Positions 2,006 to 4,952 of a stretch of DNA of 4,952 bases are shown in pieces (the first letter of the stretch is position 1; each line of letters begins with the position of its first letter). A program made the translations under genes and the position numbers. The notes beneath the pieces were generated by a model. It made no database searches and was not told the origin of the DNA. It saw only the letters and a list, made by a program, of their open reading frames with translations. This DNA comes from a virus (taxonomy: Duplodnaviria; Heunggongvirae; Uroviricota; Caudoviricetes): the IMG/VR virus record IMGVR_UViG_2713896771_000019; one strand, given 5' to 3'.

Positions 2006-2201
2006 GATGCACCTCCTGACGAATACGGGCGGCGAATACCATCACGCAGCCATCAGGAGATTGCTGGCGGGCTTCCTGTTCGCTGGTGGCCTCGATGGTA
2101 ATCACGCGCGGCTGTGCCGTGCTCAGGGCGATAAAACGCCAGATGTATTTATTCAGGTTGTGCGAGTCCCGCCCTTGCGGGTGTGTGGTATGATTTCTCA
2201 T
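1995..2201 (-). CDS. Small protein (68 aa), putative Icd-like (P4-type host cell division inhibitor-like), first gene of the minus-strand operon
   Basis: This is the C-terminal in-frame part of the 308-aa track ORF 1995..2921. The internal ATG at 2201-2199 is preceded by GAGGT. Manual translation: MRNHTTHPQGRDSHNLNKYIWRFIALSTAQPRVITIEATSEQEARQQSPDGCVMVFAARIRQEVHHVQ. The W-x-F-x-A ... EARxx ... FAAR pattern matches my recollection of Icd-like proteins in P4-like prophages; this is unverified. Confidence 0.45.
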   Translation of the reverse strand: MRNHTTHPQGRDSHNLNKYIWRFIALSTAQPRVITIEATSEQEARQQSPDGCVMVFAARIRQEVHHVQ

Positions 2202-2296
2202 AGCTACCTCGATACTTTCGCTATCGTTGGTGGTTAGAGGCTGCGAAAGGACGGCAATCCTTTCCAGCCTCGTTTGCATTGAGTGATAGTTACTCA

Positions 2297-2377
2297 ACTG
2301 GATTCCAGTATAATCACCAAGTGGAATCCACTTCAAGCATTTTGTTTTGGTCTTTTTCGTGTATACTGGATTCCAGT
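2297..2377. promoter_or_regulatory. Divergent switch region with three palindromic operator-like sites (consensus TGGAWTCCA)
   Basis: ACTGGATTCCAGT at 2297-2309 and again at 2365-2377 are identical 13-bp palindromes. GTGGAATCCAC at 2321-2331 is an 11-bp palindrome with the same half-sites. TATAAT at 2309-2314 and TATACT at 2362-2367 abut sites 1 and 3 on the plus strand. The region lies between the divergent 59-aa ORF and the minus-strand operon. Confidence 0.5.
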
Positions 2378-2397
2378 AATCACAAAGGAAACCAGAA

Positions 2398-2973: not shown

Positions 2974-3162
2974 TTAGTGAACTGCCTCGCAGCTGTCTTT
3001 CCATGCCAGAACTTCGGATAAAGACCAGCCAACGGAACGACCGCCGAGCTTACGCCGTGATGGGAATTGTCCGGCTTTTTCCAGGCGGTACCGACATGAG
3101 CGGCTCAGGCCTGTAAGTTGCTGACATTCTTTTTCACGTATAAAGCGATCTGTGCTTAACAC
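2974..3162 (-). CDS. alpA: AlpA/Vis-family phage transcriptional regulator (62 aa, MerR-like HTH)
   Basis: Track ORF; the start codon is GTG at 3162-3160, preceded by a strong SD AAGGGGG (4 nt spacer). The motif LTGLSRSCRYRLEKAGQFPSRRKLGGRSVGWSLSEVLAW matches the AlpA-family signature (HTH ... FP ... LG.RSVGW...E...W). It lies downstream of, and in the same orientation as, the integrase, as in P4-like elements. Confidence 0.8.
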   Translation of the reverse strand: MLSTDRFIREKECQQLTGLSRSCRYRLEKAGQFPSRRKLGGRSVGWSLSEVLAWKDSCEAVH

Positions 3163-3192
3163 AATTCCCCCTTTGTTGTTTCTTAAAGAGTC

Positions 3193-3240
3193 ATTGGGTG
3201 GGTTATTGGGTTGGGTTGTGTCGGATTGTGTCAGGGTGTT
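3193..3240. repeat. G/T-rich degenerate repeats (TTGGGT x3, TTGTGTC x2) in 10-bp register, upstream of the alpA start
   Basis: TTGGGT at 3194, 3206 and 3211; (G/A)TTGTGTC at 3215-3222 and 3225-3232. The region is 30-80 bp upstream of the alpA GTG on the minus strand, so it falls in the alpA promoter region. Confidence 0.45.
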
Positions 3241-3325
3241 TATGGAATGGCAAACAGTGATGTGGTGTTCGTCGCTGAAATAGGCGCAATTAGAAAAAAA
3301 CTATTTTGATTCATTTGGATACAAA

Positions 3326-3355
3326 GGCGTAAAATTCTGCATTTACGCCTTTTTT
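3326..3355. terminator. Bidirectional rho-independent terminator between int and alpA
   Basis: GGCGTAAA (3326-3333), 8-nt loop, TTTACGCC (3342-3349), then TTTTTT (3350-3355) on the plus strand. On the minus strand the same hairpin is followed by TTTGTAT. Confidence 0.65.
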
Positions 3356-3408: not shown

Positions 3409-3456
3409 AAATCAGACTTATAGGGAGTTAATCAGAAATAATCATAGATAATCAGA
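3409..3456. repeat. Helically phased (W)AATCAGA repeats
   Basis: ATCAGA at 3411-3416, 3431-3436 and 3451-3456, exactly 20 bp apart, with ATCATA at 3441-3446 in the same 10-bp register. Confidence 0.55.
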
Positions 3457-3457
3457 T

Positions 3458-3517
3458 TTGTTCCAGATTGTTCGCCGTTGTTCGTCGTTGTGTCTCGTTG
3501 TTTCACGTTGTGTCCGT
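3458..3517. repeat. Six tandem 10-bp repeats TTGT(T/G)(T/C)CNCG directly downstream of the int stop
   Basis: Units: ttgttccaga, ttgttcgccg, ttgttcgtcg, ttgtgtctcg, ttgtttcacg, ttgtgtccgt, contiguous with perfect 10-bp register. The array ends ~20 bp from the int TAA (3539-3541). Confidence 0.7.
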
Positions 3518-3538: not shown

Positions 3539-4789
3539 TTATATTTCTCTGGCTATTGGCAGTGTGGTTACGTTTTCGTGAGCACCTGCCAGTATCTCTA
3601 ATCGCTCTGTCCACATATCCAGCGCATTACGTTTCGCATCGATATAACGGGAGTGGTTATAGACTCGTTGCATCCCTGGCATCTGGTGAGCGGTGAGTTG
3701 TTCGACAATATGTGGATCCACGCCTAAATCGTTCAGCATCGTGGTAAACGTGCGCCGTATATCGTGTAGTGACCAGTGCGGATGGTTTAATTTTTTGTGC
3801 GTGAATCTGCCGTATTGCGACACGCTGGCTTCCTGTTTCAGTTCCCCGAGTAATAGCCCTGTGTGCCTGTTCTGCTCCACCAGCTGTGTGACGAACGGCA
3901 AAATGCTTTCCGGTATTGGCCTGAATATGGCGACCTTCGTTTTGCTGTGCTCTTTCGGTACTGTCCAGAGCATTTCCTTAAAATCCCACTCCCTGATCTC
4001 CGACAGCCTCAGTTCTCCGGTCCGGCAGCCGAACACAATCAGGAGGCGGATTAGTGCGCTGTAGTAGGGCGGGAATATTTTTTTATCCAGCGCCTGTAAT
4101 AATTCGCTCAGTTCTTTGTTGCTCAGCACGCGTTCGCTTATGCCCGGCTTTTTGCCAACGTCCACCACGTTGAGATCATCCAGAACGTTACTGACTGCGT
4201 AGCGACGTTTACGGCAGAACTTAAGCGCCTGTTTACACGCCTGCATCATGTGGCCAGATGTTACGGGTGATTTTTTGCGTATCCGGTCAAAACAGGCCAG
4301 CCAGTGACGTAACTCGCATTTATCCAGTGGCATATTGCCAATATGCTGTATGACGTGATTATTAAGGCGGCTTTTCAGGCATACGTAATCGACACGGTTT
4401 TCCTTTACGTGCATTTCCAGCCAGTAGCTGATCGCATCGCCCACCGTTACCGGCTTTAGTGCTTCCTGTATGGAGTAATTAAGCTCATGGCGTGGATTTT
4501 TTCCTTCTGCCAGCCATGCGCGACACTGTGCTGCTTTTTCCCTGGCTGCTTTCAGGCTCAGATCAGGATAATTTCCCAGTTTCAGGCGTTCCGGTGATAC
4601 CTGGCGTCCTGTTCCTGCCCTGTAGGTGAAATACCAGGTTAACAGGCCGCTGGTGGAGTGTCTGATACTCAGATTTCCACCGTCATTAAGAAAGGTGGTT
4701 TTTTGGGCTGGTGTGCCGTTGATTTTTCTTAGCTGCGTGTCGCTCAGTTTGTTAAGTGCCCTGCTCATAATTTTGAATCCGGTCATCAC
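3539..4789 (-). CDS. int: P4-family tyrosine site-specific integrase (416 aa)
   Basis: Track ORF. The N-terminal arm-binding-like region (LSDTQLRK...FLNDGGNLSIR...YFTYRAGTGRQVSPERLKLGNYPDLSLKAAREKA) resembles P4-type integrases. The C-terminal catalytic region carries the tyrosine-recombinase signatures GCRTGELRLSE, HDIRRTF and a Tyr in RVYNHSRY. The first codon at 4789 is GTG; alternative ATG starts lie at 4786 and 4768, none with a clear SD. Confidence 0.9.
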   Translation of the reverse strand: MMTGFKIMSRALNKLSDTQLRKINGTPAQKTTFLNDGGNLSIRHSTSGLLTWYFTYRAGTGRQVSPERLKLGNYPDLSLKAAREKAAQCRAWLAEGKNPRHELNYSIQEALKPVTVGDAISYWLEMHVKENRVDYVCLKSRLNNHVIQHIGNMPLDKCELRHWLACFDRIRKKSPVTSGHMMQACKQALKFCRKRRYAVSNVLDDLNVVDVGKKPGISERVLSNKELSELLQALDKKIFPPYYSALIRLLIVFGCRTGELRLSEIREWDFKEMLWTVPKEHSKTKVAIFRPIPESILPFVTQLVEQNRHTGLLLGELKQEASVSQYGRFTHKKLNHPHWSLHDIRRTFTTMLNDLGVDPHIVEQLTAHQMPGMQRVYNHSRYIDAKRNALDMWTERLEILAGAHENVTTLPIAREI

Positions 4790-4790
4790 A

Positions 4791-4814
4791 ATTAACTACA
4801 CCATTAACTACACC
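4791..4814. repeat. Perfect 12-bp tandem duplication ATTAACTACACC x2, immediately upstream of the int start
   Basis: Copies at 4791-4802 and 4803-4814 are identical and abut the int start codon region (4786-4789). Confidence 0.7.
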
Positions 4815-4830
4815 GATCATTGCACAAGGG

Positions 4831-4860
4831 GGTACAACGTGGAACAAGCTGGAACAAGAA
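4831..4860. repeat. Three tandem 10-bp repeats GG(T/A)ACAA(C/G)NT upstream of int, the inverse of the array downstream of int
   Basis: Units ggtacaacgt, ggaacaagct, ggaacaagaa. Read on the minus strand they give CTTGTTCCAG / CTTGTTCCAC / GTTGTACC, sharing the 9-mer TTGTTCCAG (plus 3458-3466; minus 4857-4849) and CACGTTGT (plus 3504-3511; minus 4841-4834) with the 3458-3517 array. Confidence 0.65.
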
Positions 4861-4952
4861 AAATTGCAATAGACTTAAAAATCAAAAACATAATGAACAA
4901 CGTGGCACATTATGAAACAGCAAAAAACACTAATTTATAAAAATCCGCTATT

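What the first reader, a model, noticed from the sequence alone, without database searches (positions are those of the whole stretch)
3193..3240. G/T-rich phased repeats in the alpA upstream region
TTGGGT x3 and TTGTGTC x2 in approximate 10-bp register lie 30-80 bp upstream of the alpA GTG on the template side. TTGTGTC also recurs in the decamer array downstream of int (units 4 and 6), hinting that one factor may recognise both the int-flanking arrays and the alpA promoter.
Basis: seen in the sequence. Interest (0 to 1): 0.35.

Follow-up and report, generated by a model that had tools for sequence, protein, structure and literature searches.

The report
Phased repeat operator at alpA promoter
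The G/T-rich repeats are one strand of a short array of 10-bp-spaced repeats on the alpA promoter of a phage-satellite island. The same motif recurs at both ends of the island and next to int, so they are most likely docking sites for the island's small excisionase-like master regulator AlpA, a familiar kind of control element not yet mapped for these islands.

Summary
TTGGGT occurs three times (3194, 3206, 3211) and nowhere else in the window. TTGTGTC occurs at 3216 and 3226, and again at 3488 and 3508. No shuffle reproduces the cluster.

The window is the int end of a PICI or cf-PICI phage satellite. Its AlpA is identical to the tested EcCICFT073 AlpA.

Read in the alpA sense, the repeats are 8+2 decamers: GACACAAT cc GACACAAC cc AACCCAAT. 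They overlap a conserved sigma-70-like promoter, TTGCCA-N17-(TG)CACAAT, and its early leader.

In 77 of 80 related loci scored, the promoter and the first two units are kept. The TTGGGT part is not: 61 loci have none, and copy number shifts in 5-nt steps.

The same decamer family (TTGTTC/TTGTGTC, 10-nt phase) marks both att arms, the array downstream of int, and the cf-PICI packaging operon. A separate 12-mer pair tracks the Int N-terminal domain.

The layout mirrors TorI sites in KplE1 attL.

Best reading: an AlpA operator that couples alpA autoregulation to excision. This rests on comparative sequence evidence; no binding has been shown. It is a new member of a known kind, of moderate interest.

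The parts
3193..3232 (-). Direct-repeat array at the alpA promoter, written in the alpA sense as 8-nt units separated by 2 nt: U1 GACACAAT 3232-3225, U2 GACACAAC 3222-3215, U3 AACCCAAT 3212-3205, U4 CACCCAAT 3200-3193 (12 nt after U3). This is the finding read on the other strand.
   Evidence: U1 and U2 are conserved in 77 of 80 loci scored; U3 and U4 vary by lineage. The weight-matrix score is second only to the int-flanking arrays.
3225..3253 (-). Predicted sigma-70-type alpA promoter: -35 TTGCCA 3253-3248, a 17-nt spacer, TG 3233-3232, and -10 CACAAT 3230-3225. The predicted start is near 3221-3217.
   Evidence: Consensus scans. TTGCCA-N17-(C/A)ACAAT is kept in all four promoter types. No transcript start has been mapped.
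2974..3162 (-). alpA, 62 aa, GTG start. It has a winged-helix excisionase-like fold.
   Evidence: Pfam Phage_AlpA 3e-18. 100% identical to EcCICFT073 AlpA. The AlphaFold model has pLDDT 86.7. The best PDB matches are the GIsul2 excisionase 8c3t (TM 0.83), RdfS and TorI.
3326..3349 (.). Hairpin GGCGTAAA...TTTACGCC with an A6 run on one side and a T-rich run on the other. It looks like a bidirectional terminator separating int from the alpA promoter.
   Evidence: The stem is kept through a G-C to G-U to A-U change across relatives.
3456..3515 (+). Array A: six decamers in 10-nt phase just downstream of the int stop (ATTTGTTCCA GATTGTTCGC CGTTGTTCGT CGTTGTGTCT CGTTGTTTCA CGTTGTGTCC). It has the same orientation as the alpA-promoter units.
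   Evidence: It is conserved as a 5-6 unit array in all relatives.
3539..4768 (-). int, a P4-type tyrosine recombinase with an N-terminal arm-binding domain. The start used here is the annotated ATG; the open frame extends to GTG 4789.
   Evidence: Pfam Arm-DNA-bind_3 4e-18 and Phage_integrase 7e-17. Annotated start in relatives.
4791..4814 (-). Tandem pair of 12-mers (GGTGTAGTTAAT twice in the int sense) immediately 5' of int. These are candidate Int arm-type sites.
   Evidence: The same pair lies in the far att arm of L001 and CFT073. Its variants track the Int N-terminal domain.
4820..4859 (-). Array B1: four decamers (TCTTGTTCCA GCTTGTTCCA CGTTGTACCC CCTTGTGCAA in the int sense), inverted relative to array A.
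   Evidence: (I1: 35 nt, 80% inverted repeat). Conserved in relatives that carry other alpA alleles.
4893..4922 (-). Array B2: three weaker decamers (TGCTGTTTCA TAATGTGCCA CGTTGTTCAT in the int sense) between B1 and the att core.
4941..4952 (.). Edge of the attachment-site core (AATAGCGGAT in the int sense). The window ends inside it.
   Evidence: The same sequence lies at both island ends in L001, inside the split yifB/comM gene.

Best explanation
The repeats are the + strand view of a 3-4 unit array of head-to-tail decamers (8-nt site plus 2-nt spacer; RACACAAY in the alpA sense, TTGTGTC on the + strand). The array sits on the alpA promoter of a phage-inducible chromosomal island and covers the predicted -10, the start site and the first ~25 nt of the leader. 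It belongs to one motif family with the arrays in both att arms, downstream of int, and upstream of the cf-PICI packaging operon. The most likely binder is AlpA itself, a 62-aa winged-helix protein of the excisionase (recombination directionality factor) type. AlpA would load cooperatively, one monomer per helical turn. At the att arms it would bend DNA next to Int bound at the 12-mer pairs and so drive excision. At its own promoter it would set alpA expression (positive autoregulation has been reported). At the packaging operon it would switch on late genes. What is shown: the motif, its phasing, its conservation and distribution, the AlpA fold, and identity to the tested EcCICFT073 AlpA. What is inferred: that AlpA binds these units, the position of the transcription start, and the sign of the effect at each site. 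The TTGGGT portion consists of degenerate, slippage-prone units in the leader and is probably not essential.
For: The motif cluster exceeds all shuffles. A weight matrix from the int-flanking units ranks the alpA-promoter pair next after the arrays in 10 of 10 loci. The promoter and units U1 and U2 are conserved in 77 of 80 loci scored, across four diverged promoter types. In whole islands, 3-unit phased scores above the shuffle maximum (19.7) occur only at the near att arm, the far att arm, downstream of int and upstream of the capsid operon; the alpA promoter scores 19.9 in CFT073. Replication-origin iterons are a different motif, ATAACCCGC. The 12-mer pairs change with the Int N-terminal domain, including in the unlinked far arm, whereas the decamers stay constant. 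This assigns the 12-mers to Int and leaves the decamers for another protein. AlpA has Pfam Phage_AlpA and an excisionase fold. KplE1 attL has the same layout: TorI sites with a GTTCG core, 8-nt sites separated by 2 nt, arranged in two blocks, then Int arm sites, then the int ATG (PMC2951348; sequence checked). Recombination directionality factors typically bind direct repeats one helical turn apart, at att sites and at promoters (PMC7498355, PMC11963761). AlpA of identical sequence activates a PalpA reporter and, when overexpressed, triggers excision and replication (PMC6092414; identity shown).
Against: There are no binding data for AlpA on any of these sequences. Sites that overlap the -10 and the start site normally repress, yet the published effect on PalpA is activation. 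In the same study AlpA did not change a Pint reporter, although arrays flank int. The decamer core stays the same across alpA alleles only 49-66% identical, and islands with the 74-aa allele keep att-arm decamers while having none at their alpA promoter. The promoter is only a consensus match. U3 and U4 are poorly conserved, and 5-nt length variants break the phase. The 80 loci are related and are not independent samples.
Confidence: 0.55

Rival explanations
1. The decamers are arm-type sites for the N-terminal domain of Int. On this view the copies at the alpA promoter let Int, not AlpA, regulate alpA.
For: The arrays lie on both att arms at arm-like distances from the core. Int carries an Arm-DNA-bind_3 domain. 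The decamers follow the int family whichever alpA allele is present. P4 Int represses its own promoter (PMC7286903).
Against: A second repeat, the 12-mer pair, sits on both arms directly next to int and co-varies with the Int N-terminal domain. In L001 the N-terminus is 80% identical to the window's while the rest of Int is 97% identical, and the 12-mers differ on both arms; in L032/33 and vB_KppS-Ant the 12-mers are different again. The decamers do not change through any of this. Six- to ten-unit arrays far from the core, and an array at the packaging operon, do not fit arm sites. In the KplE1 analogue the GTTCG repeats bind the directionality factor, not Int.
Confidence: 0.12
2. The resemblance is incidental. 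The conserved GACACAAT and GACACAAY are simply the -10 hexamer plus the initially transcribed sequence of the alpA promoter, and the TTGGGT copies are a slippage-generated C/A-rich leader with no binding role.
For: U1 contains the -10. The TTGGGT copies are missing from 61 of 77 loci and vary by 5-nt steps. Lag-10 identity is only 0.55. A two-unit match at this level is expected in roughly one in five to ten random 100-nt stretches, given the per-position rate of about 0.001.
Against: The two-unit match recurs in four promoter types that have diverged in the spacer and leader. In type III the array is shorter by exactly one 10-nt unit. L045-type loci restore a perfect third unit, AACACAAT. One of 2000 local shuffles reaches the score. 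Published AlpA-dependent control of this promoter requires a cis site somewhere nearby.
Confidence: 0.15
3. The decamers bind a factor that is not encoded by the island. One candidate is the still unidentified helper-phage inducer of alpA. Another is a host OmpR-family response regulator such as TorR, whose tor boxes are 10-nt-phased CTGTTCATAT.
For: Helper phages switch on PalpA by an unknown route (PMC6092414; PMC11773190). The decamer core does not change between alpA alleles. The tor boxes at torC were read directly and share TGTTC and the 10-nt phase. The vB_KppS-Ant array (CTGTTCATC, TTGTTCATC) is nearly a tor box.
Against: AlpA alone, without phage, activates PalpA and causes excision. 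The units at the alpA promoter are TGTGTC, not TGTTCA. A host respiratory regulator on both att arms has no obvious rationale. Nothing links any helper protein to this motif.
Confidence: 0.1
4. The G-rich + strand (GGGTGGGTTATTGGGTTGGG, 3196-3215) forms a G-quadruplex on the template strand and throttles alpA transcription.
For: The sequence fits G3-N1-7 repeated four times.
Against: Only this window has all four G3 tracts. Its closest relatives read GGGTGGA, and 61 of 77 loci have no such tracts.
Confidence: 0.03

Closest known systems
TorI binding sites in the attL of prophage KplE1 (CPS-53) and HK620
   Same: Both have 8-nt sites separated by 2 nt, giving a 10-nt phase. Both have a GTTCG-type core: CAGTTCGT, TGGTTCGC and CAGATCGT in KplE1, TTGTTCGY and TTGTTCCA here. 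Both have two blocks upstream of int, followed by Int arm-type sites and then the int ATG. In both the binder is, or is proposed to be, a ~65-aa winged-helix directionality factor that also regulates a promoter.
   Different: TorI is only 26% identical to AlpA and falls below the Pfam Phage_AlpA threshold. torI lies at the far end of its prophage. No TorI sites are reported at its own promoter or at a late operon. Here binding is inferred, not shown.
P4 Vis, the AlpA-family excisionase and regulator of satellite phage P4
   Same: Vis is a small AlpA-type protein needed for excision that also acts on promoters; Int and Vis both repress Pint (PMC7286903). Fillol-Salom et al. place PICI AlpA as a remote Vis homologue. 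From my own recollection, not checked here, Vis also binds its own late promoter PLL.
   Different: Vis is reported as a negative regulator, whereas PICI AlpA activates its own promoter. I could not retrieve the Vis site sequences, so the motifs and their positions were not compared.
Apl of phage 186, Cox of P2, and RdfS of ICEMlSymR7A: dual-purpose directionality factors
   Same: They bind direct repeats one helical turn apart. The sites lie both at att and at promoters, including the protein's own promoter. Assembly is cooperative and head-to-tail (PMC7498355, PMC11963761). RdfS is the second-best structural match to the AlpA model.
   Different: These are different protein families with different motifs. 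RdfS shows no clear consensus site. None of them is known to mark a packaging operon.
Pseudomonas aeruginosa AlpA and its binding element (ABE)
   Same: The protein name is the same, the DNA-binding domain is a winged helix, and the site lies inside a promoter (PMC7969949).
   Different: The ABE is a single GGGACG-N5-GGTA element between -35 and -10. That protein is a processive antiterminator that loads onto RNA polymerase. Here the element is a multi-unit phased array overlapping -10, +1 and the leader, and no canonical terminator was found downstream on the alpA strand.
TorR tor boxes at the torCAD promoter
   Same: Four direct decamers CTGTTCATAT in 10-nt phase share TGTTC with the island decamers.
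   Different: The binder is an OmpR-family response regulator, in a host respiratory operon. The alpA-promoter units (TGTGTC) fit poorly.

Membership tests
Operator arrays of winged-helix recombination directionality factors (Xis, TorI, Cox, Apl, RdfS type) | Three or more direct, head-to-tail repeats spaced about one helical turn apart | tested here: met
   U1-U3 start at 3232, 3222 and 3212 in one orientation. TRF finds period 10. The sister arrays have lag-10 identity of 0.70-0.72.
Operator arrays of winged-helix recombination directionality factors (Xis, TorI, Cox, Apl, RdfS type) | The same motif is present in an att arm, next to integrase arm-type sites | tested here: met
   Arrays B1 and B2 lie between int and the core. 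An identical module lies in the far arm of L001, CFT073 and EDL933. In each case the decamers adjoin the 12-mer pair.
Operator arrays of winged-helix recombination directionality factors (Xis, TorI, Cox, Apl, RdfS type) | The element encodes a cognate small winged-helix directionality factor | tested here: met
   alpA has Pfam Phage_AlpA at 3e-18. The model matches excisionases 8c3t, 8dgl, 1z4h and 4j2n. Excision on AlpA overexpression has been published for the identical protein.
Operator arrays of winged-helix recombination directionality factors (Xis, TorI, Cox, Apl, RdfS type) | Direct, cooperative binding of the factor to the repeats | not testable with these tools
   This needs gel shift, footprinting or ChIP. 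No such data were found in the searchable literature.
Sigma-70 promoter of alpA (PalpA) | -35 and -10 hexamers at 16-18 nt spacing, conserved in homologues | tested here: met
   TTGCCA-17-CACAAT with an upstream TG. It is kept in 77 of 80 loci scored, across four sequence types.
Sigma-70 promoter of alpA (PalpA) | A mapped transcription start | not tested
   No 5' end data were available. The published PalpA reporter covers the region, but its boundaries are not stated.
Integrase arm-type sites | The sequence co-varies with the integrase arm-binding domain | tested here: not met
   The decamer core is unchanged while the Int N-terminus ranges from 93% to 47% identity. The 12-mers change instead.
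P. aeruginosa AlpA-type antiterminator loading site (ABE) | A single site between -35 and -10, with an intrinsic terminator downstream to be bypassed | tested here: not met
   The units overlap -10, +1 and the leader rather than sitting in the spacer. No canonical terminator lies on the - strand between alpA and the next operon. The ABE motif GGGACG-N5-GGTA is absent from 3160-3260.
Replication-origin iterons | The same repeat lies next to the primase/replicase gene | tested here: not met
   The iterons after the primase gene in L001 are ATAACCCGC, which is unrelated to the decamers.

The most novel reading that the evidence does not exclude
One 62-aa protein, AlpA, reads a single decamer code at five places in the island: both att arms, downstream of int, its own promoter, and the packaging operon. 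It would therefore be the sole switch for excision, self-amplification and late gene expression. At its own promoter it would activate from sites that overlap the -10 and the start site. That geometry is not known for excisionase-type proteins, and it would imply an unusual mechanism such as remodelling or loading of RNA polymerase, or displacement of a silencer. The helper phage's unknown inducer might act through the same arrays.
Probability: 0.12. Interest if true: 0.7.

Novelty: new member of a known kind. Interest (0 to 1): 0.4.

Why it matters
AlpA is the master switch of Gram-negative phage-inducible chromosomal islands, including the capsid-forming family. How it recognises DNA, and how helper phages turn on its promoter, are stated open questions (PMC6092414; PMC10803314). 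This analysis gives a concrete and cheaply testable candidate operator: an 8+2 decamer of TTGTTC/TTGTGTC type, in 10-nt phase. It also gives a map of where that operator occurs in EcCICFT073 and EcCIEDL933, the two experimental model islands. Separating the decamers from the Int-linked 12-mers yields a working model of the excision complex. If confirmed, it would explain how one small protein couples excision, its own expression and packaging. It would also help in designing PICI-based delivery vehicles. If not confirmed, little is lost: phased repeat arrays for directionality factors are textbook.

Tried and rejected
1. A small + strand ORF over the repeats (3152-3283, 43 aa). It has no Pfam hit, and the 10-nt and 5-nt length variants in relatives break the frame. 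Rejected.

2. A structured RNA. Rfam finds nothing at 3150-3350. The leader folds no better than shuffles (z = -0.05). A Shine-Dalgarno-sequestering hairpin (CUCUUU pairing with AAAGGG) has a consensus energy of only -2.5 kcal/mol, and its covariation comes from one poorly aligned sequence. Left as weak.

3. A G-quadruplex. Only this window has four G3 tracts. Rejected.

4. Origin iterons. These are a different motif. Rejected.

5. A P. aeruginosa-type ABE or antitermination site. The geometry and motif do not match, and there is no downstream terminator.

6. A scan of species-representative genomes for AlpA relatives. It returned 20 loci, but 19 have a different alpA leader (a hairpin plus T-run), with no phased array flagged anywhere in the 19 loci at the lag-10/11 threshold used. 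They could not be used to test protein-site covariation.

7. The protein word-index search gave only 19 close hits.

8. Two guesses at the CFT073 coordinates returned unrelated regions before the island was found next to roxA.

9. The P4 Vis and Int site papers are not in the library, so P4 sites were not compared.

10. A literature search for mapped AlpA sites in satellites found none.

Full report
**What the window is.** The 4952-nt window is the integrase end of a phage satellite island, and all island genes lie on the - strand. The genes are:
- int, 3539-4768: P4-type, with Arm-DNA-bind_3 and Phage_integrase domains;
- alpA, 2974-3162: Pfam Phage_AlpA, 3e-18;
- several small ORFs, including a DUF4222 protein;
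- the start of a primase/helicase (AAA_25).

A 97.7% identical copy in E. coli O169:H41 sits in a ~15-kb island split across yifB/comM. That island also carries ssb, ProQ, major capsid, protease, portal, HNH and terminase genes, which is the gene content of a capsid-forming PICI. The window ends inside the att core, AATAGCGGAT. Similar alpA regions occur in 819 of 5426 complete E. coli genomes.

The AlpA protein is 100% identical to that of EcCICFT073, the experimentally studied PICI, which lies next to roxA in CFT073. From -35 to the start codon, the alpA promoter region differs at two bases only.

**The observation.** It is accurate.
- TTGGGT occurs at 3194, 3206 and 3211 and nowhere else on either strand.
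- TTGTGTC occurs at 3216 and 3226, and again at 3488 and 3508 in the decamer array downstream of int.
- Five TTGKGT within 50 nt was never reached in 500 whole-window dinucleotide shuffles or in 2000 local shuffles. The pattern was chosen after the fact, so this overstates the significance.
- The register is looser than in the int-flanking arrays. Spacings are 12, 5, 5 and 10 nt, and lag-10 identity is 0.55 against 0.70-0.72.

**Anatomy in the alpA sense.** Reverse-complemented, the region reads as follows:
- TTGCCA (-35, 3253-3248);
- a 17-nt spacer;
- TG-a-CACAAT (-10, 3230-3225);
- cc GACACAAC cc AACCCAAT aac CACCCAAT;
- GACTCTTTAAGAAAC, AAGGGGG (Shine-Dalgarno), and GTG.

The repeats are therefore 8-nt units with 2-nt spacers. 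U1 (GACACAAT) contains the -10. U2 covers the predicted start. U3 and U4 lie in the early leader. TTGGGT is the complement of ACCCAA, a one-mismatch variant of ACACAA.

**Conservation.** I compared 80 homologous loci: 10 from complete E. coli or Shigella genomes, 68 from IMG/VR, CFT073, and the window itself. They fall into four diverged promoter types.
- TTGCCA-N17-(C/A)ACAAT is present in all 77 loci that my script could anchor. Of the three it could not anchor, one search printed L104's upstream sequence and it shows the same promoter.
- U1 is GACACAAT (49 loci) or GGAACAAT (28 loci).
- U2 is GACACAxx in most loci.
- One type is exactly one 10-nt unit shorter.
- L045-type loci carry a perfect third unit, AACACAAT, where the window has AACCCAAT.
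- ACCCAA occurs three times in 14 loci, twice in 2 (5-nt slippage variants), and not at all in 61.

So the TTGTGTC pair is the conserved core, and the TTGGGT run is a lineage-specific, unstable part.

**One motif family across the island.** I built a weight matrix from the ten units of the two int-flanking arrays only; its consensus is CGTTGTTCCA.
- It finds the alpA-promoter pair as the next-best phased match in each of ten loci (top 0.03-0.12% of positions). One of 2000 local shuffles reaches that score.
- In whole islands, three-unit phased scores above the shuffle maximum (19.7) occur only at a few places:
  - the int-proximal att arm, in two blocks;
  - the far att arm, where the triple TCTTGTGTCT ATTTGTTCCA CGTTGTTTCA is identical in L001, CFT073 and EDL933;
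  - just downstream of int;
  - in the two cf-PICIs, directly after a terminator upstream of the capsid operon.
- The alpA promoter scores 19.9 in CFT073.
- The replication iterons are a different motif, ATAACCCGC.

**Who binds?** Each att arm carries two kinds of repeat in the same order: decamers, then a tandem pair of 12-mers (GGTGTAGTTAAT twice in the window, 4791-4814).
- The 12-mers change with the Int N-terminal domain.
  - In L001 the N-terminus is 80% identical to the window's, while the rest of Int is 97% identical. Its 12-mers read TCACT/TCATT on the near arm and TTACT/TCATT on the unlinked far arm.
  - CFT073 has TTAAT/TTAAT and TTAAT/TCAAT.
  - L032 and L033 have TGTGTGGTCAGT.
  - The 49%-identical vB_KppS-Ant element has TGTATAAACA pairs on both arms.
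- The decamer core does not change through any of this.

I therefore assign the 12-mers to Int as arm-type sites and the decamers to another protein.

AlpA is the obvious candidate, for these reasons:
- Its model (pLDDT 86.7) matches the GIsul2 excisionase (TM 0.83), RdfS, TorI, Pukovnik Xis and BldC.
- Proteins of this kind bind direct repeats one helical turn apart, at att sites and at promoters (PMC7498355, PMC11963761).
- The closest worked example is KplE1 attL. There, five TorI sites with cores GTTCG, GATCG and GTCCG lie in two blocks. The second block is three 8-nt sites separated by 2 nt, and it is followed by Int arm sites and the intS ATG (PMC2951348). I read the sequence directly: CAGTTCGTCA TGGTTCGCTT CAGATCGTTG.
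- The layout, phase and GTTCG-like core match the arrays here.
- AlpA of identical sequence activates a PalpA reporter, does not affect a Pint reporter, and on overexpression causes excision and replication. Helper phages induce PalpA by an unknown route (PMC6092414).

**Mechanism proposed.** AlpA assembles head-to-tail on the decamers. At the att arms it cooperates with Int on the 12-mers to make the excisive complex. At PalpA it autoregulates. In cf-PICIs it probably also turns on the packaging operon.

What is shown is the sequence architecture, its conservation, the protein fold, and the identity to the tested protein. Binding, the start site and the sign of regulation are inferred.

The main tension is that sites overlapping -10 and +1 usually repress, whereas published data show activation. 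Either the real start lies downstream, which would put the array at about -35 to -75, or the mechanism is unusual. I found no good -10 downstream. The conserved ACTCTTTAAGAAAC block remains unexplained. Its pairing with the Shine-Dalgarno sequence is weak.

**Rivals.**
- Int arm sites. The 12-mer covariation argues against this.
- An incidental promoter sequence plus a slippage-prone leader. This is plausible for the TTGGGT part and less so for U1-U3.
- An external factor, either the helper inducer or a TorR-like regulator. The tor boxes CTGTTCATAT were verified at torC, and the vB_KppS-Ant array resembles them.
- A template-strand G-quadruplex. It is unique to this window.

More distant AlpA relatives (49-69% identity) use a different alpA leader, a conserved hairpin plus T-run directly before the ATG. 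Protein-motif covariation therefore could not be tested.

**Verdict.** The feature is real and non-random. Its core is conserved and the TTGGGT part is not. It is best read as the promoter-proximal member of a family of AlpA operator arrays. It is a new member of a well-known kind of element. I found no published mapping of AlpA sites in these islands. Interest is moderate.

Noticed in passing
window 4791-4814 (and L001 1100-1125; L109 18104-18127): A tandem pair of 12-mers (GGTGTAGTTAAT in the int sense) lies directly 5' of int and again in the far att arm. Its variants follow the Int N-terminal domain across relatives, so these are probably the Int arm-type sites.
   Followed up: partly
L011-L028 about 3940-4000; L031 1612-1700; L032; L033: In AlpA relatives of 49-69% identity, a hairpin GCCCTCG-N12-CGAGGGC plus a T-run sits immediately before the alpA ATG. 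It shows compensatory changes between species and often has GTGATATCAC palindromes upstream. It looks like a leader terminator or attenuator and may be relevant to how helpers induce alpA. It is absent from this window.
   Followed up: partly
L001 8265-8294; L110 8649-8678: A decamer triple (ATTTGTTCGT GGTTGTTCCA G/CGTTGTTC..) lies just after a terminator, upstream of the major capsid gene, in two different cf-PICIs. This suggests that the same factor controls the packaging operon.
   Followed up: partly
window 3326-3349: The hairpin GGCGTAAA/TTTACGCC between int and the alpA promoter has A6 on one side and a T-rich run on the other. It is kept through a G-C to G-U to A-U change in relatives. 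It reads as a stronger terminator for + strand transcription than for int.
   Followed up: partly
window 2296-2380: Three palindromes (CTGGATTCCAG twice, GTGGAATCCAC once) lie in the divergent region between the ylcI/ynfO-like gene (2398-2577, +) and the icd-like/replication operon (-). A promoter-like TTGAAG...TATACT lies at 2336-2307 (-). This is probably an operator for another regulator.
   Followed up: no
window 2200-2272 (-): There is a sub-threshold Rfam match to the R1162-like plasmid antisense RNA (28.8 bits against a gathering score of 55; E = 0.053) in the leader of the icd-like ORF.
   Followed up: no
window 3429-3456: A second 10-nt-phased triple (TAATCAGAAA, 2.8 copies) abuts array A. 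It is present only in the window and L001, not in other relatives.
   Followed up: partly
L038 (vB_KppS-Ant) 7135-7335 and 11720-11950: A packaged Klebsiella-type cf-PICI has very long convergent arrays between int and its alpA-like gene: about 10 units of ATTCAACAGC type and 6 units of TTGTTCATC. It also has origin-like GTGTTCACC iterons after the primase gene. The arrays closely resemble E. coli tor boxes.
   Followed up: partly
L030 about 2330-2427 (int-alpA spacer, just after the int stop): An island with a different alpA allele has a different 10-nt-phased triple after int (GAATATCGGA AAATATCTGC AAATATCTTC). It also has CGAAC-type units about 100 nt upstream of alpA.
   Followed up: no
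L001 9641-9765 and 1379-1405: ATAACCCGC iterons lie after the primase gene (presumed origin), and a second cluster lies near the far end of the island.
   Followed up: no
window 3177-3191: The block ACTCTTTAAGAAAC between the repeats and the Shine-Dalgarno sequence is the most conserved part of the alpA leader, and it is unexplained. Pairing with the Shine-Dalgarno sequence is possible but weak.
   Followed up: partly
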